Positions 872 through 36,100 of a stretch of 59,258 bases of DNA are shown here, one piece after another. The notes beneath the pieces are model-generated. The model saw nothing but the letters and a program-made list of their open reading frames with translations, was not told where the DNA came from and did not search any database. Location of the stretch: the IMG/VR virus record IMGVR_UViG_3300044805_000178, positions 1 to 59,258 of that record; one strand, written 5' to 3'. The position numbers and the translations under genes are program-made. Numbering within the stretch: the stretch's first letter is position 1; each line of letters opens with the position of its first letter. Origin of the DNA: a virus. Taxonomy: Duplodnaviria; Caudoviricetes.

Positions 872-872
872 A

Positions 873-20262: not shown

Positions 20263-20964
20263 ATGACAACAAGCGGCACAACAACTTGGGACCCCGATAT
20301 TGGGGAGATCGTGGAAGAGGCGTTCGAGAGAGCGGGCCTCGAACTCCGCTCTGGCTACGACCTTAAAACGGCTCGCCGCAGCCTTAATTTCCTTTTGACC
20401 GAGTGGGCAAACAAGGGTTTAAATCTTTGGACTGTTGCTTCCGGCACTCTCACACTTGTGCCGGGTCAAAAAACCTACACCACCGCTGATGGTCTCCCGG
20501 CTGACGCTGTGGATTATATTGAGCATTTAACTCGCACAAGCAGTGCGGGAATTCCCACCGATATTTCGCTCAACCGCATTTCTGTATCGACTTATGCCAA
20601 CATCCCCACAAAGGAGCAAACTGGCAGGCCGTATCAGATCTACGTCAATAGGGCGACATCCTCGCCGCAAATCACGCTGTGGCCTGTCCCTGACTCCAGC
20701 ACGCCATACACGCTGGCTTATTGGTATCTGAAGCGACTTGACGATGCCACCAATCCTATCAGCCAAACCATTCAAGTGCCGTTCCGGTTCTACAACGCCC
20801 TAGCTGCGGGGTTGGCATACCACATCGCGCTCAAGCGTCCCGAGGCTCAGGACCGCATTTCGATGCTCAAGGACCTCTATGATGAGGCTTTCCAGCTTGC
20901 GGCTGACGAAGATCGTGATCGCTCCAGTGTACGGTTTACACCATTTGTGGGGTATAATTTCTAA
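20263..20964 (+). CDS. Head-tail adaptor/tail tubular-like protein
   Basis: EIVEEAFERAG..TARRSLN..EWAN, LWPVPD, VPFRF..ALAAGLAY. Confidence 0.75.
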   Translation: MTTSGTTTWDPDIGEIVEEAFERAGLELRSGYDLKTARRSLNFLLTEWANKGLNLWTVASGTLTLVPGQKTYTTADGLPADAVDYIEHLTRTSSAGIPTDISLNRISVSTYANIPTKEQTGRPYQIYVNRATSSPQITLWPVPDSSTPYTLAYWYLKRLDDATNPISQTIQVPFRFYNALAAGLAYHIALKRPEAQDRISMLKDLYDEAFQLAADEDRDRSSVRFTPFVGYNF

Positions 20965-21337: not shown

Positions 21338-22369
21338 ATGCATAAGAAGAAGCCCATCGGCTACAGCAAGAAAGACACTTCAGAGATGAAGGCGCTCATT
21401 GAGCGCACAGAGCCCAAGTCTGGCGACTATGTTGGTTCCGGCACTGTCACAACTGTGCCGAAGAAGAAAAAGAAGATGAAGCGTATGATGGACGGCGGTA
21501 TGGCCAACGCAATGATGCAGCGCGGCACACAGCCGAATGAACGCGGCCCCATCAAGGGTGCCCCTGACTACACAACGATGCCGATTCGTGGCCCGGGTGG
21601 AAAGGGCTCTGAGTCGCCCGGTATGCCCAAGACGGGCGGCATGACTCGTGACGCGCGGATGACCAAGCGGATTCAGGAGAAGTTTGGAAAGATGTCTTCG
21701 CGCTTCCCGGGATACAAGCCCGAACTCGCAAGCCCGGTTGACACCCGCGATGAGCTTAAGTCTTATCGGATGGGCCTCCGTGATTACAGGAAGGCAAACC
21801 CCGGAATCAATCCTGTGCGTGGTCCGGGTGGTCGGATTCGTGGCGGCGGTGGTGTTCCTGTTCAGGGTCCGGGTGGTGTTGTGGTGCCGCCGCTGCGTGA
21901 TTCAACCACCGGATTGCCCGCAGCAATCGCGCAGCGAAGGTCTGTGCCGCCCATGCGCCCGGATGGAAAGGGCTCTGAGTCGCCCGGTATGCCCAAGAAA
22001 TTAGACTTCGGTCGCGGGACAAACATCCAAATTGGTGGTGGTGGAAGAACTCCGGGAATACGCGGGGTGTCGGATGCTCCGGGACGCATTAACCCTGATT
22101 ACGCTCGAAATCGTGCTGGGATTCCTTCTATTGCCCAGATTGAAAGCAAGCCTATTTCTGGCATGAGGCCAGATCCGGTGACGGGGCGGTTGCCCACGCC
22201 AGTCCCCAAGGTTGACATGACAGCACCGCGTCAGCCGGGACAGAAAGGTTATGGCATGAAGGGCGGTGGCCTTGCTCGTAAGGGCGTTGGTATGGCTCTC
22301 GCCAAGGGTGGCCTTGTGAAGGCGAATGGCTGCGCTAAGCGCGGTAAGACAAAGGGAAGGATGGTATAA
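21338..22369 (+). CDS. Basic Gly/Pro/Arg-rich protein with xxGG motifs
   Basis: MMDGG, MKGGG, LAKGG; ends GCAKRGKTKGRMV; internal 34-bp direct repeat. Confidence 0.75.
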   Translation: MHKKKPIGYSKKDTSEMKALIERTEPKSGDYVGSGTVTTVPKKKKKMKRMMDGGMANAMMQRGTQPNERGPIKGAPDYTTMPIRGPGGKGSESPGMPKTGGMTRDARMTKRIQEKFGKMSSRFPGYKPELASPVDTRDELKSYRMGLRDYRKANPGINPVRGPGGRIRGGGGVPVQGPGGVVVPPLRDSTTGLPAAIAQRRSVPPMRPDGKGSESPGMPKKLDFGRGTNIQIGGGGRTPGIRGVSDAPGRINPDYARNRAGIPSIAQIESKPISGMRPDPVTGRLPTPVPKVDMTAPRQPGQKGYGMKGGGLARKGVGMALAKGGLVKANGCAKRGKTKGRMV

Positions 22370-22536
22370 TGGCAAAGCAGAACGCACGGCTCAAGCTTCC
22401 CTCCGATGCCACAGTTGAGAATGGCATGAGGCGGGGTGTGAATGTGGGCAATATGAAGGTGCTGAAGAAGCCACTCAAGATGCGTGGCGGCGGTGCTGCC
22501 ACACGGGGTTTGAAGATCTCGGAGAAGCAGGGCTAA
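22369..22536 (+). CDS. 55-aa basic ORF (MRGGGAATRG)
   Basis: TAATG coupling; stop 1 nt before the next gene. Confidence 0.7.
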   Translation: MAKQNARLKLPSDATVENGMRRGVNVGNMKVLKKPLKMRGGGAATRGLKISEKQG

Positions 22537-22537
22537 C

Positions 22538-23182
22538 ATGTCCTTCACCTACGCACAGCTTGTAGACGCCATCCACGGGTATCTCCAAACAGATGCCAAT
22601 GGTGTTCCTACTGCCGATATGAACACAATCATTCGGCAGGCGGAGCAACGTATCTATTATGATGTGCAGATCCCTGTTCTGAAGAAGAACGTGACGGGGA
22701 CATTATCAAGCGGCAACCGCTACCTCTCCACCCCAACAGACTACCTCGCCACATATTCAATTGCTGTGAATAACAACGGCAATTATGAATACCTCCTGCC
22801 AAAGGATGTGGCGTTCATGCGCGAAGCCTATCCATCTACAACAACCACTGGTGTGCCGCGCTACTACTCTCTCTTCGACAACGACACGATCCTTCTTGGG
22901 CCTCCGCCAAACTCAAACTACGAAGTTGAGCTTCATTACTTCTATGAGCCTCAGTCGATTGTGGAGGCAACATCCGGCACATGGCTGAGTGAGAACGCCG
23001 AAACCGCCCTTTTGTATGGATGTTTATTCGAGGCTTATTCCTACCTGAAGGGTGAAGCGGATCTTATCTCGCTCTACGCAGGAAGATACAAGGAAGCTAT
23101 CGAGGCTCTTAAGGTTATTGGTGAAGGCCGCAACCGCTCCGACACTTACCGTAACAATGAACCAAGGATTGTGCCGAATTGA
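22538..23182 (+). CDS. Head-tail adaptor protein (putative)
   Basis: IRQAEQRI, TGVPRYY, LGPPPNSNY, TWLS..ALLYGCL.EA. Confidence 0.75.
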   Translation: MSFTYAQLVDAIHGYLQTDANGVPTADMNTIIRQAEQRIYYDVQIPVLKKNVTGTLSSGNRYLSTPTDYLATYSIAVNNNGNYEYLLPKDVAFMREAYPSTTTTGVPRYYSLFDNDTILLGPPPNSNYEVELHYFYEPQSIVEATSGTWLSENAETALLYGCLFEAYSYLKGEADLISLYAGRYKEAIEALKVIGEGRNRSDTYRNNEPRIVPN

Positions 23183-23463
23183 ATCAAGGTTTTGGGGCCG
23201 TTGGGTCTTTTCTTGTAAGAACCACAAATGAGCGGGGCTTCACGGTTGAGGAGGTCGCAGAAGATCTTCTCAACAAGCTTATCTTCATTTCGAGCGAGTC
23301 TCATCCTGCCATTCGCGAACAAGCGATTGCGTTCAAGGATCAGATCCGCCCCGTGATTACCCACTACATGAAACAGGCTGTAAGGTCAGACAGAACCACG
23401 CTGGCAGCGCAGCTTTCAAGCCAAGGCCATATTGACATGGCCGAAATTATAAGGAAACTCTGA
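23179..23463 (+). CDS. Hypothetical protein
   Basis: HPAIREQA.AF..AVRSDRTT pattern; coupled to neighbours. Confidence 0.65.
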   Translation: MNQGFGAVGSFLVRTTNERGFTVEEVAEDLLNKLIFISSESHPAIREQAIAFKDQIRPVITHYMKQAVRSDRTTLAAQLSSQGHIDMAEIIRKL

Positions 23464-23891
23464 TGGCCATCTCCACAGCTATGTGTACATCGTTCAAGTC
23501 CGAACTTATGTCGGCACTGCACGACTTCGACAACCCCGGCGGCAACACCTTCAAGATCGCGCTCTATACTTCATCCGCCACACTTGGTGCCACCACCACA
23601 GTTTATGCCGCAACAAACGAGGTATCAGGCACAAACTACACTGCTGGTGGCAACACTCTCACCGCAGTGAGCCCGACCACCTCCGGCACCACAGCCTTTG
23701 TGGACTTTGCCGACACAACTTGGTCTTCCTCCACAATCACAGCCAATGGTTGCTTGATCTATAACAACACGAACGCAAACCGCGCTGTTGTGTCGCTTGC
23801 CTTTGGCTCTGACAAGTCTTCTTCAAACGGCGACTTCCAGATCGTGTTCCCCACAGCAAACGCCACTGACGCGATCATCCGCATCGCCTAA
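23463..23891 (+). CDS. Tail structural protein
   Basis: MAISTAMCTSFK, FKIALY, YTAGGNTL, AIIRIA. Confidence 0.75.
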   Translation: MAISTAMCTSFKSELMSALHDFDNPGGNTFKIALYTSSATLGATTTVYAATNEVSGTNYTAGGNTLTAVSPTTSGTTAFVDFADTTWSSSTITANGCLIYNNTNANRAVVSLAFGSDKSSSNGDFQIVFPTANATDAIIRIA

Positions 23892-23904
23892 GAAAGTTTA
23901 AACA

Positions 23905-24873
23905 ATGCCGGGCGTAGTTGTCCCATTTCAGGGTTGGGGCTCGTTCGGCTGGGGCGAGGCCCCGTGGGGGTACTCCGGTATCCTCAACACTGGTGCAACG
24001 GGCTCTGTTGGGTCTGTCACTGTATCCGCCAAGGCTGTTGTCCCTGTAACAGGTGTTTCGGCAACAGGCTCAGTGGGTGCAGTCACCGTCAAGGTGAACG
24101 TCAATATTTCCGTCACTGGTGTGACGGGGACTGGACAGGTTGGCACTGTCAACGTGGTTGGCCGCGCCATTGTCCCCGTGACAGGCGTTTCTGCGACTGG
24201 TTCGGCTGGAACAGTTGTCGCAAAGGGCGGCGCAGTTGTTTCTGTTACGGGCCTTCAAGCCACAGGGGCTGTTGGAACTGTAACGATCCAGCAGCCTGCG
24301 ATCGTTCCTGTGACTGGCGTTGGATCGTCGGGCAGCGCAGGGACTGTTGAGGTTAAAACAAACTCAATCATCCCCGTAAGCGGGGTTTCTGCCACAGGCT
24401 CCGTTGGGTCGGTCGGTGTTGTGGCAAAAGCCAACACACCTGTAACCGGGGTCTCTGCTGACGGTCAGGTCGGGGCCGTAGAAATCTCCACGGATCAAGT
24501 AATTACCGTGAGTGGCGTCTCTGCCACAACAGCGGTCGGCAGTGTTATAATCATAATAAACTCCATCACACCTGTGGCTGGGGTTTCCGCTACCGGGGCG
24601 GTTGGAGATGTCTTTGTAAAATGTGGCATTACGGTCGATGTCACGGGCGTTCAGGCCACAGGTTATGTGAATGATAACCTTCTTATCTGGAGCCTCATCG
24701 ACACGAACCAGACCCCCGATTGGACTGGAATTTCAGATGGTCAAACCCCGAATTGGACGCCCATCTCTGGCAGTCAAACCCCCGGATGGGTATCGGTTGT
24801 TGATTCTCAAACCCCGAATTGGACGCCAATCAACGACTCAGATTCTGTAACTTGGACGCAAATAGCGGCATAG
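23905..24873 (+). CDS. Repetitive fibre/whisker-like protein (VTGVSATGSVG repeats)
   Basis: About 11 repeats of ~22 aa plus five C-terminal QTPxW-type repeats. Confidence 0.75.
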   Translation: MPGVVVPFQGWGSFGWGEAPWGYSGILNTGATGSVGSVTVSAKAVVPVTGVSATGSVGAVTVKVNVNISVTGVTGTGQVGTVNVVGRAIVPVTGVSATGSAGTVVAKGGAVVSVTGLQATGAVGTVTIQQPAIVPVTGVGSSGSAGTVEVKTNSIIPVSGVSATGSVGSVGVVAKANTPVTGVSADGQVGAVEISTDQVITVSGVSATTAVGSVIIIINSITPVAGVSATGAVGDVFVKCGITVDVTGVQATGYVNDNLLIWSLIDTNQTPDWTGISDGQTPNWTPISGSQTPGWVSVVDSQTPNWTPINDSDSVTWTQIAA

Positions 24874-24877
24874 GAAA

Positions 24878-26479
24878 ATGGCATCAACTTATTCTCCCAA
24901 TCTTCGCCTTGAACTGATCGGTACTGGTGAACAGCAGGGCACATGGGGCTCTACCACCAATACCAACCTCGGCACTCTCCTTGAAGAGGCTATCGGCGGT
25001 TATGTTTCTGTTGCTGTAACGGATGGTGCCGACACCACTCTCACGACAAGCAATGGCTCCGCAGACCAATCCCGCAACATGGTGATCAATCTTACGGGTG
25101 CTCTCACAGCCACACGCAATGTGATTTGCCCCGCGATTGAAAAGCTCTATGTGGTGAAGAATGCTACCACTGGTGGTTTTGCCGTTACGTTCAAGGTTAG
25201 TGGCCAAACTGGTGTGAGCATTCCAAATGGCTCCACCTACTTCCTCTATGTTGACGGCACAGATGCCCGCCTGATTAATGGGACCATTGCGGCTCAGAAC
25301 TCAAATAATGTGAGCATCACGGGCGGCTCGATTTCTGGTGCCACTGTATCGAATTCATCTCTATCGAATGTCTCGGTTGTGGCGAATGCTTCCAGCCTGA
25401 GCGTGAGAGATAGTGATGGATCGAATATCCTTTCGATTGCCGTTGGGTCAAACCTCACATCCAACACAATCCTTACCCTCACCACTGGCGCGACATCAAA
25501 CAGAACGCTTGATATCTCTGCCTCGAACGTGACGGTATCGATTGCTGGCGCGGCTCTTATCGATGACGCGGATGCCTCCGCTCAGCGCACCACTCTCGGT
25601 CTCGGAACAATCGCGACACAGAATGCGAACGCAGTAAGCATTACTGGCGGCTCCGTAACTGGCATCACGGACTTGGCCCTCGCAGACGGCGGCACTGGCG
25701 CAAGTCTTACTGACCCCGCTGCAAACGCCGTTCTTGGCTGGAACGACACAGCCAATGTGATGAGATTCTTTACTGCTGGCACAGGCATCACAATCAACGC
25801 CACATCAAACACCATCTCCTCCACAGTATCCACAAGCGGAGCTTTGATACGAGCCCCGCAGATCCTCACATCCGGCACAAGCTACACAACGCCAGCAGGG
25901 TGCAACAGCATCTATGTTGAGGCTGTCGGTGGGGGCGGTGGTGGCGGAGGCGCAAACGGCTCGAACACTCAATCCGAAGGTGGTGGCGGCGGCGGCTCAG
26001 GGGCTTACGCGGCAAAGTATTTCACCGTCTCCCCGTCCACTCCCTACACCTACGCTATTGGCGCAAGTGGAACAGCGGGTACAAGCAGCGGCTCGGGCGG
26101 CAGTGGTGGAAATACCACATTCACAGTTGGAGTAACAACTCTTACATCGAATGGTGGTGCAGGAGGAAGTAGAGGCTTTAATAGTGCTTCGGGTGCTGGT
26201 GGTGCTGGTGGTGCTGCGTCAAACGGGGACTTGAACGTAACAGGGTCCGCTGGCTCAGGCGGAGTTGGGTCAGCAGCAACAGCTATTACCCTCGCTGCGG
26301 GTGGCTCTGGAGGTAGTTCTTTTTTTGGTGGCAGTGGGCGCGGAGGCACCGATGAAACTGCCGGGACCGCAGGTTCATCTGGATCTGGCGGTGGCGGAGG
26401 CGCGGAAACGAATGATAACGGCGGGACTTCTGGTGGTGCAGGCGGCGCTGGCCTTATCCGAATTTGGGAGTACACATAA
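24878..26479 (+). CDS. Tail fibre protein with a Gly-rich C-terminal domain
   Basis: MASTYSPNLRLELIGTGEQ..WG.TTN anchor; LGLGTIATQ; VGGGGGG domain. Confidence 0.82.
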   Translation: MASTYSPNLRLELIGTGEQQGTWGSTTNTNLGTLLEEAIGGYVSVAVTDGADTTLTTSNGSADQSRNMVINLTGALTATRNVICPAIEKLYVVKNATTGGFAVTFKVSGQTGVSIPNGSTYFLYVDGTDARLINGTIAAQNSNNVSITGGSISGATVSNSSLSNVSVVANASSLSVRDSDGSNILSIAVGSNLTSNTILTLTTGATSNRTLDISASNVTVSIAGAALIDDADASAQRTTLGLGTIATQNANAVSITGGSVTGITDLALADGGTGASLTDPAANAVLGWNDTANVMRFFTAGTGITINATSNTISSTVSTSGALIRAPQILTSGTSYTTPAGCNSIYVEAVGGGGGGGGANGSNTQSEGGGGGGSGAYAAKYFTVSPSTPYTYAIGASGTAGTSSGSGGSGGNTTFTVGVTTLTSNGGAGGSRGFNSASGAGGAGGAASNGDLNVTGSAGSGGVGSAATAITLAAGGSGGSSFFGGSGRGGTDETAGTAGSSGSGGGGGAETNDNGGTSGGAGGAGLIRIWEYT

Positions 26480-26661
26480 TGCGGTGTGCATTGATAAATC
26501 AATCAACCAATATTGTTGAAAATATTATTGTGGCAGACCCTTCTGTGGACCCTGCTCCGGATGGATATTTGATCATCGGATTACCGGAAGATAGCCCTGT
26601 TGCCATAGGCTGGGTTTATGATCCGGCAACTGGTCAGTTTTCCGAACCAATTCAAAATTAA
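26479..26661 (+). CDS. Tail fibre assembly-type small protein
   Basis: IVENIIVAD..IGWVYD..F. Confidence 0.7.
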   Translation: MRCALINQSTNIVENIIVADPSVDPAPDGYLIIGLPEDSPVAIGWVYDPATGQFSEPIQN

Positions 26662-26674
26662 ACAGGCAAAATAA

Positions 26675-27031
26675 ATGATCGAAGAACTCATCGCAATGGT
26701 GTTTCGGACTCGTAACCAAGCGCATCTCGCGCATTGGAAGACGAAATCCTATGCTGAGCATCAGGCTCTTGGATCGTTTTATGATGACCTTATCGACGCC
26801 CTCGACAAGCTTGTAGAGGCTTGTCAGGGCTCGAAGGGGATCATCGGTCACGTTGATCTGTCCTGTAAGGATGAGTCTGTGGAGATCATCAAGTGCCTCA
26901 CAGATGATGCCAACTGGATTTCCCGCAATCGCGCCAAGATCGGTCATGGTGTCCCGGCACTCGAAAACATCCTTGACGAGATTGTCGGTATTTATCTCAC
27001 CACCCTCTACAAACTGAAGAACCTTTCTTAA
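26675..27031 (+). CDS. Ferritin/Dps-like protein (DUF5856-like)
   Basis: HLAHWKTKSYAEHQALGSFYD..D.LVE; TLYKLKNL. Confidence 0.75.
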   Translation: MIEELIAMVFRTRNQAHLAHWKTKSYAEHQALGSFYDDLIDALDKLVEACQGSKGIIGHVDLSCKDESVEIIKCLTDDANWISRNRAKIGHGVPALENILDEIVGIYLTTLYKLKNLS

Positions 27032-27041
27032 GGGCATTTAA

Positions 27042-29225
27042 ATGCTCGCCAAAATCAAATTACAGCCGGGTATTAATCGAGACTCAACCAACTACGCAAA
27101 CAGCGGCGGTTGGTTTGATTCCGATTATATTCGCTTCAGAAACGGACTGCCCGAGAAGATTGGCGGCTGGACAAGGATCTATTCCAATCAGGAAGCCCTT
27201 ATCGGTGTGTGCCGAAAGATGTATGATTGGTCCAGCCTTATTGGCACTCAGTATCTTGCCTGCCCGACCAACGTCAAGTTTTATGTGGACAACACATCAG
27301 ACATCATTGATATCACCCCGCTTCGCCGCAGCTTGACACTGGGCAACAACCCAATCGCGACAACCAACACCTCAAATGCCATCACAATTACTGATGTTAA
27401 TCATGGGCTGGTGCTGGGAGACTACATCACAGTTTCGGGGTCTTCAAATGTGAATGGCATTCTTTCGACCTCCATCAATAAGGAGTTTCTTGTTTCGAAC
27501 GTGATTAACGCGGACGCTTATAGCGTAACAACAGCAAATACCGCCACATCCACCGGATCTGGTGGCGGCGCGAGTGTGGTTGTGCAGTATCAATTTCACC
27601 CCGGCATCGCTCAGACAGCCGTTTTTGAAGGCTGGGGCTCTGGCCCGTGGGGCGGCATATCTGGTTCCTATGGTTGGGGATTCGGCCCCGCAACAACCGT
27701 CACGACATACTACAGCGGCCTATGGACAGTGGACAACTATGGCGAGGACATGATCGCTTGTCCGCGCGACCTCACCAACGGCTATGTTCTCAGCACCAAT
27801 CCAATTTCCGTTACAAACACAAGCAACGTCATCACCGTTACGCAAGCCAACCATGCGTTCTCGAATGGCAACGCAATTATAATCGGGAATGTTACGAGTG
27901 ATATTGGAGGGATTCCAGTAATTCAGCTTAATGGCACCCAGACAATCACCGTTGTGAATGCCAACGCCTACAGCTTTGTTGTAGCGAACGTCAATGCCAC
28001 TTCAACTACCTCTGGTGGCACAGGCGCTTATGCGTTTACATCCTCCATCATTTACTGGGACATCACTGACGATGACGGCCCCGCAGTAAGTTTGAGCAAT
28101 CTTGGGTCTGCATATGCGAAGAAGTATCTCCCGTATGTGGCTGCTGAAGTTATGGTGTCGGACCAGAACCGACAGGTTATTGCATATGGGTGCAATCCAT
28201 ACGATGTGACGCAAGAACAAGACCCGATGATTGTGAGGTGGTCGGATTCTTCTGATCCCACAAACTGGGACATTGCCGACACCACCAAGACATCCGGTGA
28301 GCAGCGGCTTTCTTCGGGGTCTTATATCGTCACTGCAATCCAGAACCGCGAAGAAATCCTTATCTGGACCGATTCATCGCTCTACACGATGACTTATGTG
28401 GGGCCTCCGACAGGCTATGGATTCAATCTTGTTGGTACGAATTTCGATATTATTGGCCCGAACGCCAAGATCGTGACTGGTGCGGTTGCGTACTGGATGG
28501 GCACAAACAACTTCTACACCTACAATGGTAAGGTTGAGCCCATGCCCTGCACCGTCAGGGATTATGTTTTTCTTGATCTCAGCAAGGATGACGGCGACAA
28601 GGTTTATTGCTCAGCCGATTCCGGCAACAATGAGATCATCTGGTTCTACCCTTCTGAAAGCCAAGGCGGGACTCCCGGCTCCCGCGAAGTTGATCGCTAT
28701 GTTGTTTACAACTATGCGGAGGGCGCGTGGTATTATGGCTCTATGGCCAGAACTGCATGGATCGACAGACGCGCACATCCAACCCCGCGCTCTGCGAGCC
28801 CCGATGGATATCTCTACAACCAAGAAACTGGCTTTGATGACGGCTCCACAAGCCCCGCATCCCCAATCAATGCCTATATCGAATCAAGCCCGATTGAAAT
28901 CGAAGACGGCAACAGCTTCCTTTTTATCAATCGCGTGATTCCTGACCTCACATTCCGCAACTCCACCGACAACAACGGCACTCAGCCTATCGTGAAGTTT
29001 ACAATCAAGCCGCAGGATTATCCGGGTGGAGAGATTGGCGTTGGTGATGAGCGAGATGTGCAGAGGAATAGTGCCGCAACACTCAACGTGAATAGATTTA
29101 CCAACCAAGTGTTTACACGTTTGCGCGCTAGGTCTGTGGCTCTTCGTGTTGAGAGTGATGTTATTAATGTTTCTTGGCGTCTCGGGGTCCCAAGATTTGA
29201 TATGCGGCAGGATGGACGCAAATGA
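27042..29225 (+). CDS. Tail stabilisation/nozzle protein (P22 gp10-like) with inserted beta domains
   Basis: KLQPGINR, RFRNGLPEKIGGW, VRWSD, MPCTVRDYVF, WFYPS, WRLG. Confidence 0.78.
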   Translation: MLAKIKLQPGINRDSTNYANSGGWFDSDYIRFRNGLPEKIGGWTRIYSNQEALIGVCRKMYDWSSLIGTQYLACPTNVKFYVDNTSDIIDITPLRRSLTLGNNPIATTNTSNAITITDVNHGLVLGDYITVSGSSNVNGILSTSINKEFLVSNVINADAYSVTTANTATSTGSGGGASVVVQYQFHPGIAQTAVFEGWGSGPWGGISGSYGWGFGPATTVTTYYSGLWTVDNYGEDMIACPRDLTNGYVLSTNPISVTNTSNVITVTQANHAFSNGNAIIIGNVTSDIGGIPVIQLNGTQTITVVNANAYSFVVANVNATSTTSGGTGAYAFTSSIIYWDITDDDGPAVSLSNLGSAYAKKYLPYVAAEVMVSDQNRQVIAYGCNPYDVTQEQDPMIVRWSDSSDPTNWDIADTTKTSGEQRLSSGSYIVTAIQNREEILIWTDSSLYTMTYVGPPTGYGFNLVGTNFDIIGPNAKIVTGAVAYWMGTNNFYTYNGKVEPMPCTVRDYVFLDLSKDDGDKVYCSADSGNNEIIWFYPSESQGGTPGSREVDRYVVYNYAEGAWYYGSMARTAWIDRRAHPTPRSASPDGYLYNQETGFDDGSTSPASPINAYIESSPIEIEDGNSFLFINRVIPDLTFRNSTDNNGTQPIVKFTIKPQDYPGGEIGVGDERDVQRNSAATLNVNRFTNQVFTRLRARSVALRVESDVINVSWRLGVPRFDMRQDGRK

Positions 29226-29479
29226 CATCAAACTCTGCACTACCGCTTGCTCCAAAAGAATACAACCAAGAATACATGAACAGGTTGCTCAAGCAGCTTA
29301 GTTTTGTTATTTCAAGAATTAACGCCATCCGTCCCTTAACCGTTGGTTCAGACTTGAGCCAGCAAACGGTTGGCTACCCCATTTCGGGCCTCACAATTGT
29401 GAATGTCCCGACTTCTTCCGCAAACCTACCTTCCGGCAGTGTGTGGTCCGATAGCGGCACACTCAAGATTGTGAGCTAA
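29222..29479 (+). CDS. Small tail protein
   Basis: LPLAPKEY; ends WSDSGTLKIVS. Confidence 0.65.
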   Translation: MTSNSALPLAPKEYNQEYMNRLLKQLSFVISRINAIRPLTVGSDLSQQTVGYPISGLTIVNVPTSSANLPSGSVWSDSGTLKIVS

Positions 29480-29480
29480 A

Positions 29481-30530
29481 ATGTATTTCAACAACATCCC
29501 TCAGAACTTCGGTCTTGCTCCCGAACAGGACCTCAATCAACTTATGCAAACGCCTGTTCTGGGCTATAATCAAGGGATTGGAGGTATCCAGTCTCAGCAA
29601 AGAAACGAATACCAGCCAGCCCCGCAGCTTGGGAATGTCAGCGGCACATCCTCCACAACTGGCATTGGCGGTAAATCAATCACACCCTTGATGCCCTATA
29701 GCAAGAAGGGTCCGGGCCAGACGATGGCGGAGGGCGGTGGTGTTAAACGCACTGAGCCGGGGTATCTCGACTACCTCGCCACAGCAGCCCGCAACGCCGC
29801 AGACAAGGCTTCCTTCGGCACTGCTAAGTATGGGATTGCTGCTGGTGATTATAGCTATGACGCTCTCATGGACATGATGGGCTATGAAAGCGAAGCCGAT
29901 TATTATCGCTCCCTTGCCGAGCAAGAATATGCCATGAAGGAAGGCGAGGAGAAGATGCCGGAAGCCGCTATGGCTGGGGATGTTATCGGTTATGCAGCCC
30001 CGTATCTCGCTGTTGGCCCCGCTCAGTCTGCCCTTTCTGGCCTTGGCTACTTAAGCGATTACGGCTCAAAGGCCGCTTCTCTTGCTCAGCTTGCACGCCG
30101 CAGCATGGGTTATGCCGCAGGCGGGATTGTGAAGCAGAACCTCGCAAAGGGCGGTGTGGTTGCTGATGGTATAGCAGCACTTCGGGGTCAGCATCCTGAC
30201 CCTAGGTCAGCCCTTGACGCCTACGACAGAACATTCGGCACTGACGCCACAGCAGAACTTATGCGCTCCTACGCCGATGGCGGTGTGGTGAGTGGTCCGG
30301 GCAGTGGAGTAGCAGACCTAATCCCCGGCTCTATTGATGGCCGTGAGGATGTGAGGATTGCAAGCGGTGAGTATGTTGTTCCGGCTTGGGCTGTCGCCAC
30401 ACTTGGCGATGGCTCCACAGAGGCTGGCGCTAGAGTGCTTGACACAATGGTGGCCCGCCTTCGCGAGGAAGGCTCCGAGCGCATTATGGGCACCGAACCA
30501 ATTGAACCCAACGAATTTGTTCCGGCATAA
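29481..30530 (+). CDS. Putative ejection/internal protein
   Basis: Four xxxGG motifs; GPGSGVADLIP..ASGEYVVPA..LGDGSTEAGA. Confidence 0.7.
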   Translation: MYFNNIPQNFGLAPEQDLNQLMQTPVLGYNQGIGGIQSQQRNEYQPAPQLGNVSGTSSTTGIGGKSITPLMPYSKKGPGQTMAEGGGVKRTEPGYLDYLATAARNAADKASFGTAKYGIAAGDYSYDALMDMMGYESEADYYRSLAEQEYAMKEGEEKMPEAAMAGDVIGYAAPYLAVGPAQSALSGLGYLSDYGSKAASLAQLARRSMGYAAGGIVKQNLAKGGVVADGIAALRGQHPDPRSALDAYDRTFGTDATAELMRSYADGGVVSGPGSGVADLIPGSIDGREDVRIASGEYVVPAWAVATLGDGSTEAGARVLDTMVARLREEGSERIMGTEPIEPNEFVPA

Positions 30531-30532
30531 AA

Positions 30533-31702
30533 ATGGCAGAGAAAAAGACAGGCTACGGTAAAGATCTTGAGGCGTATGTTCAGGATATGCTTGCGCGGGC
30601 GAAAGCTGGCGCAACAGCGGCACAGACTGCCGGGTATCCTGCTGAATCCTCCTACACACAGGCATATTACGCCGGAATCCCCAACCTCTATATGTATGGC
30701 GATCCCGAGCAGCTTGAGGCTCTCCAGAGGACGCAAGGCCTCTACGGGGCTTATGGTGATGCTGGCCAATACAACAAGACTCGCTTTGATGATATTGGAG
30801 GCATGTACACGGCGGCGGGCCAATACGACCCCGCACAGTTTGACATGGCCGACTACACGGCCCAAAACATCCAGCAGAGGATGTCTCCCTATGAGGAGCT
30901 TGTTGCCGACAGACAGCGTTCGCGTTTAAAGAAATCCTATGACGAAGCCCGTGGAGAGCGTGAGGCTCAGGCCGTAAGGGCTGGTGCTTTTGGTGGCTCT
31001 GGTCAGGCGATTCAGGAAGAACTCGCCCGCAGGGGTTATCTTGAGCAGATGGCAGATATGGACGCTCAGAGCCTTCAGGCGGCGTTTGAGTCTGGCTCCG
31101 GGCTGTATAGCAAGGAGATTGCTGATCGTCTTGCGGCCCAGCAGGCTGGTGAAGCCTCGCGTCAATTTGGCAAGCAGACGGAGTTCTCTGGGCTTGAGGG
31201 ATTAATGGGTGCCCGCCAGCAGGAGGCAGCACAGACTGCGGCTGCGAAGGAAGCAGAATTCGCGGGTCTTGCTGGTCAGACTGGTAGTGCTCAACAGCAG
31301 GCTCTCCTCGCTGAACAGCGCAAACAGATGCAGCTTTCAAACCTTGCAGCGCAACAGACTGCGGGACAGCAGAAGGAGGAGAGGAGGCTTGCCGAACTCC
31401 AGTATCCTCTCGGCCTCGCCGCTCTTCAAGGGAATGTTGTTGGCTCATTAACTGGCGGGTCCAGCGCAATCCCGCAGTCTGTCCAAAAAACATCAACCAC
31501 GCAAAACATCCTTGGCGGTCTCGCTGCTGGTGCTGGCATTGTGCAGGGTCTCGGCGGTTTGAGCGGTATTTCTTCGGGTATCCAGTCTATAGGTGGGGCC
31601 CTTGGTTTTGCCAATGGTGGTCTTGTCCCGTATGGTTATCGCTATCGTGGCGGCGGGCTTGCAGATTTTGAGCCCCAGTACTACGACATGTATGAACGGT
31701 AA
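30533..31702 (+). CDS. Putative DNA-ejection (pilot) protein
   Basis: Gln/Ala-rich helical; AGAFGGS; Gly-rich hydrophobic C-terminus. Confidence 0.7.
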   Translation: MAEKKTGYGKDLEAYVQDMLARAKAGATAAQTAGYPAESSYTQAYYAGIPNLYMYGDPEQLEALQRTQGLYGAYGDAGQYNKTRFDDIGGMYTAAGQYDPAQFDMADYTAQNIQQRMSPYEELVADRQRSRLKKSYDEARGEREAQAVRAGAFGGSGQAIQEELARRGYLEQMADMDAQSLQAAFESGSGLYSKEIADRLAAQQAGEASRQFGKQTEFSGLEGLMGARQQEAAQTAAAKEAEFAGLAGQTGSAQQQALLAEQRKQMQLSNLAAQQTAGQQKEERRLAELQYPLGLAALQGNVVGSLTGGSSAIPQSVQKTSTTQNILGGLAAGAGIVQGLGGLSGISSGIQSIGGALGFANGGLVPYGYRYRGGGLADFEPQYYDMYER

Positions 31703-31767
31703 TCCCGAGCGGGAAATTTTCAAGCCCCGCATCTGTTTTCAGAATAAAATAATCCCGAGCGGTAAAA

Positions 31768-33159
31768 ATGCCCAATATCATTGAACAGCAAGATCTTCTT
31801 AAGGGCCTTCCCGATGCAAGGCTCATGACGCTTCTACAGAAGCCTATGGGAGACATCCCGCCGTTTCTTGTGGCGGCAGAGGCTCAGAGGCGTCAGCAGA
31901 TCCGTCAGCAGTTCGCGGGGTCCGGAAGCAAAGAATCAGTGGTTGATACCCTGACAAAGCAGCTTGCGAATGTGCCGCAGAATGTGAATGCCCCCGCTCG
32001 CACTCCTCCTATGATCCCCCAAACACCTCCGATGCAGGGTGTTATGGCACTCCAGCAACAGCAGGAAATGGCAGACATGGCTCAGCAGGGCCAGACCATG
32101 CGCGGCGGCGGTATGGTGCAGAGGTATCAGTCTCAGGGCCTAGTGCAGAGGATGGGTGAGCTTTACGGGTCAAGGAGCCCTACCGTTCAGCAGCTTTCGA
32201 GCATGACGCCAGAAGAACTCGCCGCTCTTCGAAAGTACCAGAGCGATCAAAATATGAAACGTTTAAATGAGCAAGCCCAGATTACCGGAGGCAGATACGG
32301 TCAGGGCATGGCTTACCAGCGAGAGCTTTTGGAGAATCGTATCTTGGGGCCGTTCGCTGGCTTTGCTTCACCTGAGAGCGCAGTTGAGGCGGCAAAGAGG
32401 CTTCAGGATCTTCCCACCGGGGAACAGATGGACCGGACGCTCGATACTGGCGAGCCTCTCCCAAGCACAGCGAATAATCGTATTTTCCCAACCATCCCCG
32501 CCGGAGCTTCAGGTGGCATGAGCCTCACCACTCCGCCAAAGGCACCTGCACCTCCAGCAGAAACTCCGCCTCCGGAACCCGGCGAAACCCCCGACGAATA
32601 TCGCGCCCGCCTTGAGAAAATTCTTGCCGCTCAAGAACCCTCCGATTGGGAGAAGGCTCAGGGGTACTTTTCTATGGCGGAGCAGTTCCTCGATCCGTCA
32701 AAAACTACAATGCAGAGCCTTGTTGGCGCAGGTCAGGCGTTCTCGCAGTCTGCGGGAGAGCAGGCCAGAGCACAGCGTGAAGCAAAGCTTGCTCTTGAGA
32801 AGGGCTTGCTTGAGTATGATATTGGAAAGGCTGAAGATCTCAGGCAGGAAAAGGAGCGAGAGCAGGAGAGGGGCGCAGCCAGTCTCAAGGCTCGCACAGA
32901 TATTGCGACTCGCAGGCTTGATGATCTACAGAGAAGCCAGCAGAATGTTTCTCGGCGCATTGATGATATTAAGCTTGAAGTTATGAAGGGTCTTGACCCA
33001 GAAATCGCAAAAGAAGAAATTTCAAAGCTTCAAAGAATGTACGACAGCATTGGTGCTGAAATGGCAGGTTATAATTCCTTCCTGAAATCCAATTATGGAT
33101 TCGGGCCTGTCGAAGAATTCGATCCAAACAAAAGCTCACTTTACAAACCGGGAACTTAA
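31768..33159 (+). CDS. Putative ejection protein
   Basis: Position; coiled-coil; MRGGG motif. Confidence 0.65.
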   Translation: MPNIIEQQDLLKGLPDARLMTLLQKPMGDIPPFLVAAEAQRRQQIRQQFAGSGSKESVVDTLTKQLANVPQNVNAPARTPPMIPQTPPMQGVMALQQQQEMADMAQQGQTMRGGGMVQRYQSQGLVQRMGELYGSRSPTVQQLSSMTPEELAALRKYQSDQNMKRLNEQAQITGGRYGQGMAYQRELLENRILGPFAGFASPESAVEAAKRLQDLPTGEQMDRTLDTGEPLPSTANNRIFPTIPAGASGGMSLTTPPKAPAPPAETPPPEPGETPDEYRARLEKILAAQEPSDWEKAQGYFSMAEQFLDPSKTTMQSLVGAGQAFSQSAGEQARAQREAKLALEKGLLEYDIGKAEDLRQEKEREQERGAASLKARTDIATRRLDDLQRSQQNVSRRIDDIKLEVMKGLDPEIAKEEISKLQRMYDSIGAEMAGYNSFLKSNYGFGPVEEFDPNKSSLYKPGT

Positions 33160-36100
33160 TGGCTCGCACAGTTTATGTTCGCGGAGTTGGGAAATCGTAC
33201 AGCTTCCCTGACGGAACGTCAGATGACCAAGTTGTATCTTATCTCAGCAGACTTCATCCGCCCGCACCACCTCCAGCCCCTCCTCCAGAGGAGCCTATTG
33301 GCGCTTTGGAATCTGGCTTCTATAGCTCTCTTGGCAAACTTGAAGCGGCTGGTGGCAAGGCTGCAGAGGCTGTAGGCCTTGAGGGGATTTCGGGTTACCT
33401 CCTTGAGGAGTCCCGGAAAAGCCAAGAGTATGCCGATAAGTATAAGCCCTCTGTGGGTGATGTCACTCAGATTGGTGGAATTGGCGACCTTGCCTCTTTC
33501 ACAGGCGAAACCATTGCTCAGTCGGCACCCGAAACAGCAGTTGGTGTTGGTGGTGCTTATGTAGGCGCTTCAATTGGCGCATTTGGTGGCCCCGCTGGTG
33601 CCTTGGCTGGTGGCCTCATAGGTGGTGCCATAGCATCATTGCCATTCTTTGTTGGTGGAAATTTGCAGCGCCAAGCGGAGGAACAGGGCATCCCGCTTGA
33701 AGAAATAGACCTCACCGCAGCGAGTGTTGGAGCTATCGCTCAGGCACCTCTTGATGCTGCATTTGAGACGCTTATAGCCCGGAAGCTCCCCGGTGGCGGG
33801 GCCGCTCTTGATATTGTAAGGAAGGGCTTCTTTAAAGAGGTTGCGAAATCTGCTGGTCAAGGTGCCCTCACAGAGGCCCTCACAGAGCCTGCACAACAGG
33901 CAATTGAACTTGCTCAGGCAAACCCCGAAAAGCTTCGTGAGTTTGGCCCTGAAGTGCAGCAAGAAATCCTTAATGCTGCGGCTGCGGGTGCTTTGGCTGG
34001 TGGTGCTATCAGCGGCGTTGCTGGGGGCGTTGGTGCAATTGGAAAGCCCACAGAGCAGTCTTTGGCTCAGACGGAACTCAGGACCGACATTACGGCGAAG
34101 CGCCTTGAGGGCGACCAGTTGAAGCGTGCCGCAGAGGTCAATATGGGTGTTGAGAAGCTTGCTGCTCAGCCCCAGATTGGCAGGCTTAAGCTTGACCAGA
34201 TCACCATTGAGCCCACAAAAGAGAACGGGCTTCGTGCCCCGGTTAAGCGGTTTAGGGTCGCAGACTATAAAGGCAATGCCATCGCAGAGTTCAGCGATCC
34301 AGTACTCGCAACGAACGCTGTTGACCAGTACAAGAAGCTATCCAAGAAGAACATCATCCTTCAGGGTCTCCCGACTGGCGCTGAAATCCCAACTGCAAAA
34401 ATCTCTGCGGCTGCGGCCCCTGAAGCGAAGGTAACGCCTCCGCAGGTCACACAGCCTGCTGAAGTCCCTCCAGTTGCCACCCCAAAGGTTGAGCCGACAG
34501 GCGAGGGCATGCGCCCCGTAAAGACGTTCAAAACGACATTTGGGTCTGAATACACCATTTATCCTGACGGCGGGACTACGCGCGTCAAGACACCGCATCC
34601 GGGGCATCCCGTCACAGACGTAGGCTTAAAGCCAAAGTCCCAAAAAACTTATTTCATAAGGCCAGAAGACCACCAGATCCTTGACATTGTTCAGGCTGAA
34701 AATCCTCTTGGCAGTATGATTATTGCGGAATATTCACCGGGGAAAATTGGTGTAAAGTATACCGATGGTAAGTATGCTGGCAAGTTCCTCAAGGATAGCG
34801 TTGTAAACACATTCGAGTCTCCAGAAATCGGTCTCATGCCTCTTGAGATCTGGAAGGGAGGCAAAAGGACTCACTTTGGCAACAAAATCACAGAGATTTC
34901 CGAAGTCCCGATTGTTGAGCCCGTTGCTGAGCCTGTAACTTCTGAACCTACCCCTTCTGAGCCAACCGTAGTAACGGCAGAAGAGCTTTCCACAGACGCA
35001 ACTCCAATTGGATCAGTTGAGCCTGCCCCAGTTGAAGCGGTCGAAAGCGTGCCTGCGGCTGATATCCCCGGCACAGACCTTCGCAGCGCGATTGCTACGG
35101 GCAAGGAGGCAATGACTGTCTCTCCTGAAGAGCAGATTGAGGTTCGCCAGAAGATTGAAGAGCGCACCAATAAGATTGCTGAAGAGGTGCGTACTTCACT
35201 TGGCCGCTATGGCCTCAAGGATGTGCAGGCAAAGTTTGTTCCTGCTTTTGTCGATGGGATGAAAGTCAGGCCGCAGCTTGGTGCCGCAGGAATGAGTGGC
35301 GACAAGGCTTTCATCAAGCTTGCGGTTGGTATCTTTGACCCCGACATGCCAATTGAGCAAATGGTTGACCGTGTTATAGACACCCTTAACCATGAGACAA
35401 TCCATTCCCTTCTTGACCTTGGTCTTATACGCCCTGTGGAGATGAAAGCCCTTCTTGAGGCTGCATCCCGGACGAAGATGAAGGGCAAGAAATACACATA
35501 CCTTGACTACGTTAAGACCATCTACGACCCAAAGAAGCCCGGAATGGAGCTTTACAAAGACCCTAATGCTGTTGCAGAAGAGTCTGTTGCAGAGATGTTC
35601 CGTGAGTGGCGCAAGGGTTATGCTGGAGTGCCAACGAATTCTCGGGGTTTGATCAACAGGATTGTTGAAACGCTGCGGCGCATTTTCGGCGCGATGAAGC
35701 GCCAGAGCTACGAGTCAATCTTTGAAGACATCGCTGCTGGTAGGGTTGGGAAGCGTCAAAGGGATATCAAGAGGGCGAAGGATTCTCGCTTTTTGGCGGG
35801 AGAATCTGAGCCACAAGAGAAGAAGAACTTCATTCCTGAAAACCCGTATCTCTCCGTTGCCCCTGTTTATCCCTTTGGGCAGCGCGTTCGGCAGTCAAAT
35901 GCTCAAACCACAAACCGCGTATTGGATGAGATTGAATACGGCACAATCGTTACGGGAATCTCAAAACTATTTAAGTCTAGGATTCTCTCCACAGTTGTGC
36001 CAGAGAGGTTCAGACCCTCTGATGAGGCAGTAACTCGCTTCATCCAGCTTTTTGGTGATAGGATCTTGCCTGTTGGCCAGATGATTGACTATGTCCGTGC

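What the first reader, a model, noticed from the sequence alone, without database searches (positions are those of the whole stretch)
21338..33159. Recurrent [MFYL]-x-x-G-G motif in basic and ejection-type proteins: candidate capsid-targeting or maturation-cleavage signal
Seen: MRGGGM and MFKRGGVV (junction protein, 59025 and 824); MMDGGMA, MKGGGLA and LAKGGLV (21338 gene); MRGGGAA (22369); MAEGGGV, YAAGGIV, LAKGGVV and YADGGVV (29481); FANGGLV and YRGGGLA (30533); MRGGGMV (31768). Two otherwise dissimilar genes share KKMKRMxxGGM. The motif often delimits low-complexity segments. I did not notice it as a recurring feature in the capsid or replication proteins. Known analogy: adenovirus protease cleaves (M/I/L)xGG|x in basic core proteins and ASFV pS273R cleaves GG|x. 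Inference: a genome-wide zip-code or polyprotein-processing system for internal cargo. No prohead protease is recognisable, so the reader of the motif is unknown.
Basis: partly seen in the sequence, partly recalled or inferred. Interest (0 to 1): 0.75.

Follow-up and report, generated by a model that had tools for sequence, protein, structure and literature searches.

The report
Gly-Gly tag on phage ejected proteins
A short glycine-glycine sequence tag really does recur, and is conserved, in the proteins this phage carries inside its head and shoots into the host, and it belongs to a very widespread unnamed module also present in the tail tape-measure protein of phage lambda, but whether it is a docking tag or a cutting site is still open.

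Summary
All 13 cited sites are at the stated places. The loose pattern [MFYL]xxGG is only mildly enriched (33 vs 22.9 expected; 51 of 2000 shuffles reach it). The excess lies wholly in the flagged proteins (13 vs 5.7; the rest 20 vs 17.3). The GG is kept in every aligned orthologue at all 8 alignable sites.

In relatives, 49 of 51 hypervariable small basic proteins between the two adaptor genes carry the tag within their last 45 residues.

The tag ([FYML]-A/R/K-x-G-G-hydrophobic) is the leading part of an unnamed module with 12,026 clusters. The module sits at the ends of ejected-type proteins carrying lysozyme, CHAP, SLT or ART domains. It also matches the lambda gpH C-terminal fragment (hhalign P 9e-4).

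No phage protease was recognised, and the adenovirus register fits only 5 of 13 sites. However, T5 pb2 is cut one residue before AEGG, and P22 gp7 is cut by host OpdA just before KGGKGG.

Best reading: a docking or incorporation element of internal cargo, with cleavage a live rival.

The parts
58989..59258 (+). N-terminal part of the junction ORF (pI 12.0, 30% Gly). It carries KKMKRMRGGGM, with the motif at 59025-59042.
   Evidence: The window ends overlap imperfectly in a Gly-rich repeat, so the exact join is uncertain.
2..871 (+). C-terminal part of the junction ORF (pI 11.8). MFKRGGVV lies at 824-847, 14 residues from the C-terminus.
834..1892 (+). Two further very basic ORFs (834-1334 and 1335-1892, pI 10.6 each). 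They carry variant copies: QKRGGAR at 1260-1280 and MPRGGGE at 1683-1703.
   Evidence: No homologues in G001, G002, HTVC027P or 023Pt by tblastn.
20263..20964 (+). First SU10-type adaptor paralogue, the left border of the hypervariable island.
   Evidence: Pfam SU10_adaptor, E 8.5e-13
21338..22369 (+). gp21338, a basic low-complexity island protein (pI 10.9). Motifs at 21485-21505 (MMDGGMA), 22256-22276 (MKGGGLA) and 22298-22318 (LAKGGLV).
   Evidence: Atlas model pLDDT 0.47.
22369..22536 (+). gp22369, a 55-aa basic protein ending KMRGGGAATRGLKISEKQG. The motif is at 22480-22500.
   Evidence: (GG kept in 15 of 15 orthologues)
22538..23182 (+). Second SU10-type adaptor paralogue, the right border of the island.
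   Evidence: Pfam SU10_adaptor, E 1.7e-26
29481..30530 (+). gp29481, the first of three internal-protein genes upstream of the giant protein. Motifs at 29724, 30111, 30141 and 30270.
   Evidence: AF2 mean pLDDT 44.8.
30246..30527 (+). C-terminal ~94-aa module of gp29481: YADGGVVSGPGSG..D.IP....GEYVVPA..V..LG.G....G...LD. The motif is its leading segment.
   Evidence: Profile A2 finds 12,026 clusters. The independent profile A5 hits this stretch at 42 bits.
30533..31702 (+). gp30533, a Q/A-rich protein ending FANGGLVPYGYRYRGGGLADFEPQYYDMYER. Motifs at 31607 and 31643.
   Evidence: GG kept in 11 of 11 orthologues at both sites
31768..33159 (+). gp31768, carrying MRGGGMVQRYQSQGLV. The motif is at 32098-32118.
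   Evidence: 10 of 10; motif columns 0.79 identity vs flanks 0.55
33159..38714 (+). Giant 1851-aa internal or polyvalent-type protein. It has an invariant HExxH (HETIH, 35391-35405) plus an EE block (35577-35594), and LPD38 at residues 1525-1728. It is a possible but unproven reader if the tag is a cutting site.
   Evidence: Fold searches were inconclusive.

Best explanation
The element, consensus [F/Y/M/L]-[A/R/K]-x-G-G-[hydrophobic]-[V/A] and often continuing x-G-x-G, is a selectively maintained short module. It marks the proteins this podovirus stores inside the head and expels through the tail.

At sequence level it is the leading segment of a very widespread, unnamed module of ejected proteins. 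That segment often occurs on its own or in repeats.

Most likely it works as a docking or assembly element, by analogy with lambda. There the C-terminal piece of the tape-measure protein gpH contains FATGG, the GEFVF core, YATGG and MRDGG, and its last residues sit as a trimer on the hub protein gpI in the tail tip.

- **Proposed role:** the tag lets unrelated cargo (basic low-complexity proteins, and the three proteins upstream of the giant protein) be taken into the virion and held to a common partner. That partner could be the portal-adaptor-tail channel or the other internal proteins.
- **Shown:** the motif is real, conserved, class-restricted and part of the module family.
- **Inferred:** that it binds a partner, and which partner.
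For: 1. **Enrichment is confined to the flagged proteins.** They hold 13 vs 5.65 expected; the rest hold 20 vs 17.3.
2. **The GG is kept** in all aligned orthologues at 8 of 8 alignable sites. At several sites the motif columns are more conserved than the flanks: 0.79 vs 0.55, 0.88 vs 0.63, 1.00 vs 0.68.
3. **The island proteins are hypervariable except for the tag.** In 20 related loci the island between the adaptor paralogues holds 51 distinct small basic proteins of very different length and sequence. Of these, 50 carry [MFYLIV]xxGG, 49 within the last 45 residues and 22 within the first 30. A conserved end on a free-varying body is what a signal looks like.
4. **The tag is independent of composition.** The same tag occurs in proteins of pI 12 and pI 4.6.
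5. **It behaves as all-or-none per lineage.**
   - The window and G001 each have it in six or more proteins.
   - HTVC027P and 023Pt have a GG-R/S-V variant in the syntenic genes. The pattern [MFYL]xxGG.[VIL] gives 12 vs 2.5 and 13 vs 3.5 (0 of 1000 each), but that pattern is post hoc.
   - Clade G002 has none, although it keeps homologues of gp30533, gp31768 and the giant protein.
6. **The module family is large and of the ejected-cargo type.**
   - 12,026 clusters at E<=1e-3 and 6,328 at E<=1e-10, mostly C-terminal.
   - 9 of the 48 longer representatives scanned have Pfam hits. These lie N-terminal or mid-protein, none over the C-terminal module: InPase x3, CHAP, phage lysozyme, SLT, ART-PolyVal, PG_binding_1, DUF6782 and DUF4214.
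   - In 148 representatives the motif occurs 388 times vs 131 +- 11 expected. Ala follows the first residue in 252 of 384.
7. **Synteny in a cultured phage.** In Pseudomonas phage phiC725A the module opens the protein just upstream of the giant 'internal virion polymerase'.
8. **The lambda link.** gpH residues 733-772 align to the module (hhalign P 9.1e-4, 36 columns). gpH 818-849, which includes MRDGGLF, is resolved bound to gpI (PMC12617516, passages read; sequence).
Against: - No partner has been identified, and no structure shows the tag in contact with anything in this phage.
- AF2 gives no confident fold for gp29481 (pLDDT 44.8).
- The plain-HMM link to lambda gpH is at noise level: 5.1 bits against 5.8 bits for T7 gp14. 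The hhalign probability is only 22.8%.
- The only match among solved structures is the Douge tape-measure protein at E 0.011, in an unresolved region.
- Gene-content comparison found no candidate receptor gene present in motif-bearing lineages and absent from G002.
- Part of the statistics rests on patterns refined after seeing the data.
- The recurrence could reflect shared descent of module fragments without any common reader.
Confidence: 0.4

Rival explanations
1. **Maturation-cleavage signal.** The tag directs endoproteolysis of internal and ejected proteins, by a host peptidase or by the HExxH domain of the giant protein. This would release conserved N- or C-terminal peptides from a variable core, in the manner of adenovirus pre-Mu.
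For: - **T5 pb2.** The tape-measure protein is cut after R1127 (PMC10038345, passage read). In the sequence this reads ...NSFVPR|AEGGMMYPG..., one residue before an A-x-G-G element.
- **T5 host involvement.** The title of Zweig & Cummings 1973, seen only in a reference list, speaks of host involvement in cleavage of a T5 tail protein.
- **P22 gp7.** It loses its first 20 residues through host OpdA, and the mature end is KGGKG (PMC8402733, passage; record note). The sequence reads ...SYPE|KGGKGG.
- **Lambda gpH.** It is cut in its glycine-rich C-terminal region, releasing about 14 kDa. Both site and enzyme are unknown (PMC12617516). Fragments starting at residues 711-731 would weigh 14.6-13.0 kDa, just upstream of FATGG at 735.
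- **Layout of the island proteins.** Tags lie near both ends around a variable core.
- **A candidate enzyme.** The giant protein has an invariant HExxH...EE block in 9 of 9 aligned homologues.
Against: - No protease family was recognised in the window by Pfam, PHROGs or NCBIfam.
- The HExxH block could not be placed in a peptidase fold. The best Foldseek E-value is 0.43, and VIA Z is at most 6.5, to unrelated helical proteins.
- The registers of the three precedents differ from one another and from this motif.
- The T5 match is six residues only (hhalign P 0.36).
- Only 5 of 13 sites fit the recalled adenovirus (M/I/L)xGG form.
- YADGGVV lies inside a conserved folded-looking module rather than at a boundary.
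- There are no proteomic data for this lineage.
Confidence: 0.25
2. **Shared descent without a shared reader.** The copies are remnants and duplicates of one ancestral module, shuffled among internal-protein genes. The GG is merely a tight turn that each protein needs for its own fold.
For: - One copy is demonstrably the first segment of the full module.
- The C-terminal tails of the island proteins continue GG-hydrophobic-V-x-G-x-G like the first half of the module.
- A ~130-aa insert in gp29481 is flanked by two copies, as expected from recombination between repeats.
- In the wider family, 176 of 388 copies lie within 45 residues upstream of a module core.
Against: - 212 of 388 copies in the family stand alone. 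That alone exceeds the 131 expected for the whole proteins.
- The tag is the only conserved part of otherwise hypervariable, apparently disordered island proteins.
- It appears or disappears together across several unrelated proteins of a lineage.
Confidence: 0.22
3. **Nucleic-acid contact.** The basic, Gly/Arg-rich context (RGG-like) binds the packaged DNA, and the motif is part of that DNA-condensing surface.
For: Five or six of the carriers are extremely basic (pI 10.6-12.0; 16-28% K+R) and low in complexity. The island tails are rich in K, R and G.
Against: The same tag is equally conserved in acidic carriers (gp29481 pI 4.6, gp30533 pI 4.9, gp31768 pI 5.3). Its invariant features are hydrophobic residues and GG, not charge.
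Confidence: 0.06
4. **Chance product of glycine-rich composition.**
For: - The loose pattern is only 1.4-fold enriched genome-wide (51 of 2000 shuffles reach it).
- GG dipeptides are in general excess (215 vs 162).
- Clade G002 shows nothing.
Against: - Within-protein shuffles control for composition, and the excess is concentrated in seven ORF pieces.
- The GG is fully conserved across orthologues.
- The motif is threefold enriched in 148 independent family representatives.
Confidence: 0.03

Closest known systems
C-terminal fragment (gpHC) of the phage lambda tape-measure protein gpH
   Same: - It holds three copies of the tag (FATGG, YATGG, MRDGG) and a GEFVF...IG.GN core, which aligns to the module (hhalign P 9.1e-4, 36 columns).
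- It belongs to a protein expelled through the tail.
- Its end docks on another virion protein, gpI (PMC12617516, passages).
   Different: - It is a siphovirus tape measure, not a podovirus internal protein.
- Plain HMM similarity is at noise level.
- The tagged N-terminal part of gpHC is unresolved, so the tag's contacts are unknown apart from residues 818-849.
Maturation cleavage of T5 pb2 (after R1127) and of P22 gp7 (after residue 20, by host OpdA)
   Same: These are ejected proteins cut immediately upstream of a GG element: R|AEGG and E|KGGKGG. A host enzyme does the cutting in P22, which would explain why no phage protease is seen.
   Different: - The registers differ from each other and from [MFYL]xxGG.
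- There is one site per protein, not a genome-wide tag.
- P22 gp7, gp16 and gp20 and T5 pb2 show no recurrence of the motif.
Adenovirus protease sites in core proteins pVII and pre-Mu; ASFV pS273R GG|x
   Same: Basic internal proteins with GG-containing sites near both ends of a small core.
   Different: - Only 5 of 13 sites fit (M/I/L)xGG.
- The dominant form has the hydrophobic residue one place further out, with Ala next to it.
- No adenain-like or Ulp-like peptidase was found.
T4 capsid-targeting sequence and encapsulin cargo-loading peptides (recalled)
   Same: A short terminal peptide shared by unrelated cargo that directs them into an HK97-fold shell. Here the tag lies within 37 residues of the C-terminus in five of the seven carrier ORF pieces.
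   Different: - There is no sequence likeness.
- The T4 signal is N-terminal and removed by a prohead protease that this phage lacks.
- Binding to the shell is untested here, and the lambda analogy points to the tail channel instead.
Polyvalent or giant internal virion proteins (Pfam LPD38, InPase, ART-PolyVal families)
   Same: The giant gp33159 carries LPD38 (E 9.2e-37). Members of the module family carry InPase and ART-PolyVal domains.
   Different: The tag and its module are not among the Pfam domains found on any of these proteins.

Membership tests
Unnamed C-terminal module of ejected proteins ('GEYVIPA' module; 12,026 clusters) | Significant match to a profile built from family members other than the window protein | tested here: met
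   Profile A5 (26 representatives, window protein not included) hits gp29481 residues 274-330 at 42.0 bits, E 4.8e-13 in a set of 95 proteins. Profile A2 finds 12,026 clusters.
Unnamed C-terminal module of ejected proteins | [FYML]-A-x-G-G leading segment upstream of the GE[YF]V core | tested here: met
   YADGGVV lies 32 residues upstream of GEYVVPA in gp29481. 142 of 241 cores in the 148 representatives have a tag within 45 residues upstream.
Unnamed C-terminal module of ejected proteins | Full module present in the other tagged proteins (gp21338, gp22369, gp30533, gp31768, junction ORF) | tested here: not met
   No domain hit above noise with A5 or A2. These proteins carry only the tag or the first half of the module.
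Lambda-type tape-measure C-terminal region (gpHC) | Homology of the module to gpH 715-853 | tested here: inconclusive
   hhalign P 9.1e-4 but probability 22.8%. hmmsearch gives 5.1 bits, at noise level. Pfam Tape_meas_lam_C covers gpH 627-701 only.
Adenain (Peptidase C5) substrate system | Consensus (M/I/L)xGG|x or (M/I/L)xGx|G (recalled) | tested here: not met
   5 of 13 sites fit by inspection of the peptides. The family-wide consensus has Ala at the position that should be M, I or L.
Adenain (Peptidase C5) substrate system | A clan-CE cysteine protease encoded by the virus | tested here: not met
   No such Pfam family among 77 window ORFs scanned (24, 53).
T4-type capsid-targeting sequence | N-terminal signal removed by a prohead protease | tested here: not met
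   No prohead protease found by Pfam, PHROGs or NCBIfam. Most tags are internal or C-terminal.
Double-glycine leader / C39 peptidase system | C39 peptidase domain and an N-terminal leader ending in GG | tested here: not met
   No C39 domain found. The tags are not N-terminal leaders in the acidic carriers.
Zincin-like metallopeptidase (for the giant protein's HExxH block) | HExxH plus a third ligand within a zincin fold | tested here: inconclusive
   - HExxH and EE are invariant in 9 of 9 homologues.
- Pfam gives only single-member hints: Tox-MPTase2 at 0.045 and SprT-like at 0.12.
- The model has pLDDT 63.
- The best Foldseek E-value is 0.43, with weak rows to lethal-factor-like and PPEP peptidases. 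VIA Z is at most 6.5, to unrelated helical proteins.
Virion-incorporation or docking signal (functional class) | Necessary and sufficient for packaging of cargo | not testable with these tools
   Needs reporter fusions and GG-to-AA mutants in a cultured relative.

The most novel reading that the evidence does not exclude
The tag is the common recognition element for maturation of proteins that tailed phages expel ahead of their DNA. It would be read by a host peptidase, as OpdA reads P22 gp7, or by the HExxH domain of the giant protein. It would then explain the long-unknown cleavage site of lambda gpH to gpH* and the cut in T5 pb2. The hypervariable small basic proteins would be processed at both ends like adenovirus pre-Mu, leaving a DNA-condensing core and releasing conserved targeting peptides.
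Probability: 0.13. Interest if true: 0.85.

Novelty: new variant of a known kind. Interest (0 to 1): 0.58.

Why it matters
How podoviruses select and hold the proteins they carry inside the head is poorly understood outside T4, T7 and P22.

- **A cheap marker.** A short tag shared by unrelated cargo would give a sequence marker for ejected proteins in the many uncultured marine phage genomes. This lineage is related to the abundant HTVC023P-type pelagiphages: TerL is about 55% identical.
- **A route to cargo loading.** The tag could give a handle for loading foreign cargo into virions.
- **A large annotation gap.** The module has more than 12,000 clusters and no Pfam or PHROG name.
- **A testable guess for lambda.** The link to gpH suggests where to look for its unmapped cleavage and docking region, which recent structural work calls unknown (PMC12617516).

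Tried and rejected
- **Trimer prediction.** A trimer of gp29481 residues 205-349 (alignment A6, 60 rows) gave 'no answer': score 0.05 against a mark of 0.42, with the partner's fold uncertain. This is evidence neither way.
- **AF2 of gp29481.** Mean pLDDT 44.8, unusable for fold search.
- **PDB searches.**
  - Profile A1: nothing.
  - Giant-protein region 34800-36000: nothing.
  - Profile A3: chance rows only.
  - gp10719 and gp9312: chance rows only.
- **Fold search of the HExxH block.** Inconclusive.
- **tblastn against cultured phages.**
  - gp21338: no match.
  - gp29481 and gp30533: only partial matches, in MinM2 / Pag-Yong1 / Pra-JY27 for both, and for gp30533 also in three further phage records.
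- **Lambda gpH 715-853 search.** It returned only near-identical E. coli prophage proteins among those listed, so no diverse tape-measure profile could be built.
- **Junction ORF.** No homologue in G001, G002 or G003.
- **ESM Atlas.**
  - gp21338: only unnamed viral clusters.
  - gp10719: weak cement-protein leads, scores 0.80-0.82.
- **Gene-content comparison.** No gene is present in the motif-bearing lineages yet absent from G002.
- **Literature searches.**
  - One search gave 0 papers.
  - Searches gave papers on the T4 targeting sequence, lambda, P22 and N4. None was seen to describe this motif in the listings and abstracts, or in the passages I read of three of them (PMC12617516, PMC8402733 and PMC10038345).
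  - Supplements, such as T5 fig. S5G and table S3, were not seen.
- **Rejected idea.** A recent DNA copy as the source of the shared KKMKRM..GGM: only 27 of 36 bases are identical.

Full report
**What the window is.**
The 59,258-base window is a whole, circularly permuted phage genome. Its two ends overlap imperfectly inside a Gly/Ser-rich ORF.
- The large terminase is about 55% identical to those of phage 023Pt_psg01, DSL-LC04 and Pelagibacter phages HTVC027P and HTVC023P.
- Pfam and PHROGs name a portal, a Mu-gpT-like capsid protein and two SU10-type adaptor paralogues.
- They also name an M15 endolysin, an SLT protein, an integrase, and a giant 1851-aa protein with LPD38.
- The genome therefore looks like that of a temperate short-tailed phage.

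**Is the observation true?**
I shuffled residues within each of 84 ORFs 2000 times.
- The pattern as written, [MFYL]xxGG, occurs 33 times against 22.9 +- 4.7 expected (51 shuffles reach it).
- A longer form with two hydrophobic residues after GG occurs 17 times against 3.6 +- 1.9 (0 shuffles). That form was derived from the sites themselves.
- The excess sits entirely in the seven flagged ORF pieces (13 vs 5.65). All other ORFs show 20 vs 17.3.
- Outside the flagged set, the matches in TerL and portal look like ordinary parts of folded enzymes and are conserved as such.

**Independent checks.**
A scan of viral contigs with the neighbouring 727-aa structural protein gave 37 related loci at 28-95% identity.
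- At the eight sites that can be aligned, every orthologue with residues there keeps the GG: 4/4, 14/14, 14/14, 14/14, 11/11, 11/11, 10/10 and 15/15.
- At several sites the seven motif columns are more conserved than the 25 residues on either side.
- A complete relative, G001, repeats the enrichment (37 vs 22.7; 0 of 500 shuffles).
- A more distant clade, G002, does not (23 vs 18.1; 63 of 500), although it keeps homologues of gp30533, gp31768 and the giant protein.
- HTVC027P and 023Pt use a variant, [FYM]xxGG[R/S]V. It occurs in the genes syntenic with gp29481 and gp31768 and in small basic proteins after the portal.
- T7 gp14, gp15 and gp16 have 0, 0 and 1 copies.
- So the tag is lineage-dependent, and within a lineage it appears in several unrelated proteins at once.

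**The hypervariable island.**
Between the two adaptor paralogues (window 21338-22536), relatives carry one to four small basic low-complexity proteins. These cannot be aligned with each other except at their ends.
- Across 20 loci there are 51 distinct such proteins.
- 50 carry [MFYLIV]xxGG, 49 within the last 45 residues and 22 within the first 30.
- The ends fall into a few types:
  - ...M[RK]GGGLARKGVGMALAKGGLV..GCAKRG..KGKMV
  - ...KEGGLVRG.G.A.RGRGRGKMV
  - ...MA.GGIVGKPARSYKDMKAGAGSGVGRIQKTKIARGR
  - ...KMRGGGAATKGLKISEKQG
- The window's carriers span pI 12.0 to 4.6.

**What the tag belongs to.**
In gp29481 the last copy, YADGGVV, opens a conserved ~94-residue C-terminal module: GG.V.GPG.G..D.IP....GEYV[IV]PA..V..LG.G....G...LD.
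- A profile of this module finds 12,026 clusters (50%-identity representatives) at E<=1e-3 and 6,328 at E<=1e-10. The matches are mostly at C-termini and often in two copies.
- Neither Pfam nor PHROGs names the module.
- Of the 48 longer representatives scanned, 9 carry Pfam domains, none of them over the C-terminal module: InPase, CHAP, phage lysozyme, SLT, ART-PolyVal, PG_binding_1, DUF6782 and DUF4214. This is the repertoire of internal, ejected or polyvalent proteins.
- In the 148 best representatives the tag occurs 388 times against 131 +- 11 expected. Ala follows the first residue in 252 of 384, giving the consensus [FYML]-A-x-G-G.
- 176 copies lie within 45 residues upstream of a module core, and 212 stand alone.
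- In Pseudomonas phage phiC725A the module opens the protein immediately upstream of the giant 'internal virion polymerase'.

**Link to tape-measure proteins.**
- Among solved structures the module profile matches only the tape-measure protein of mycobacteriophage Douge (8zdo_S; E 0.011; two copies of GGFLSGPGTGRSDSMLARVSNGEFI). That region is unresolved, because only residues 1658-1699 were modelled (PMC13033339, passages).
- The lambda gpH sequence fetched here ends ...FHFATGGFTGTGGKYEPAGIVHRGEFVFTKEATSRIGVGNLYRLMRGYATGGYVG...QMRDGGLFSGGGR.
- hhalign aligns 36 columns of the module to gpH 733-772 (P 9.1e-4, probability 22.8%). A plain HMM gives only a noise-level score.
- The passages I read of PMC12617516 say that:
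  - gpH is cut in its glycine-rich C-terminal region into gpH* and a ~14-kDa gpHC;
  - the site and the enzyme are unknown;
  - residues 818-849 sit as a trimer on gpI.
- PMC11101478 describes the gpH end as a coiled superhelix on gpI.

**Is it a cleavage site?**
No protease family is recognisable in the window. The genes around the capsid gene look like a scaffold, and perhaps a cement protein.
- The giant protein has an invariant HExxH...EE block in 9 of 9 homologues. Neither sequence profiles nor fold searches place it securely among zincins.
- Only 5 of 13 sites fit the recalled adenovirus register.
- Against that, the literature gives three cases of ejected proteins cut beside GG:
  - T5 pb2 after R1127 (PMC10038345), which in the sequence is ...FVPR|AEGGMM;
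  - P22 gp7 after residue 20 by host OpdA, with mature end KGGKG (PMC8402733), sequence ...SYPE|KGGKGG;
  - lambda gpH, as above.
- The T5 likeness is six residues only, and the registers differ.
- A host enzyme would remove the objection that the phage encodes no protease.

**Verdict.**
- The motif is real, conserved and class-specific.
- It is best described as the leading element of a widespread, unnamed module of ejected proteins.
- It most likely serves docking or incorporation of internal cargo (confidence about 0.4).
- Cleavage (0.25) and mere shared descent of module fragments (0.22) are serious rivals.
- The adenovirus-like polyprotein system is not supported as written.
- The finding is a new variant of known kinds (targeting peptides, tape-measure C-terminal modules) and is worth an experiment.

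Noticed in passing
window 1-120 and 59139-59258: The two window ends overlap imperfectly. The last ~70 bases match positions ~51-120, then diverge inside a poly-Gly repeat. The ORF is one base out of frame across the join. The junction gene's true repeat number is therefore uncertain, probably from assembly of a tandem Gly-rich repeat.
   Followed up: partly
window 21338-22536; loci L001-L022 between the adaptor paralogues: This is a hypervariable island. Relatives hold 1-4 small basic proteins of 55-406 aa here, unalignable except at their ends. In one relative (L011) the gp22369-like end is fused to an upstream island protein.
   Followed up: yes
window 29724-30131 (gp29481 residues ~82-217): Long forms of gp29481 (349-368 aa) carry a ~130-aa helical insert that the short orthologues (~220 aa) lack. 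The insert is bounded on each side by a copy of the tag.
   Followed up: partly
window 35076-35858: The most conserved block of the giant protein across distant relatives (25-46% identity) holds an invariant HExxH and a downstream EE. No family could be assigned.
   Followed up: partly
window 8950-9315: A GroES-like co-chaperonin gene lies between the portal and scaffold genes. It is shared with HTVC027P and 023Pt.
   Followed up: no
window 15227-17116: A run of small proteins with DUF6321, DUF5872 and DUF6496 lies around the endolysin and holin. The DUF6496-like 'KQA.AIAL' N-terminus also opens many members of the module family (alignment A5). In Acinetobacter phages it lies next to head maturation protease genes.
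   Followed up: no
window 38711-39541 and 43834-46873: An integrase, a C-5 cytosine methylase, an ERF recombinase and a PD-(D/E)XK nuclease lie on the minus strand. The phage looks temperate.
   Followed up: no
window 5441 and 6230 (TerL): Two matches to the loose pattern (LQPGGAIV and FRQGGF) are conserved in TerL of all relatives, including motif-poor G002. They show the background of the pattern within ordinary folded domains.
   Followed up: yes
window 834-1892: Two further very basic ORFs (pI 10.6) follow the junction gene. They have no homologue in G001, G002, HTVC027P or 023Pt by tblastn. A long antisense ORF (828-1904) overlaps them.
   Followed up: partly
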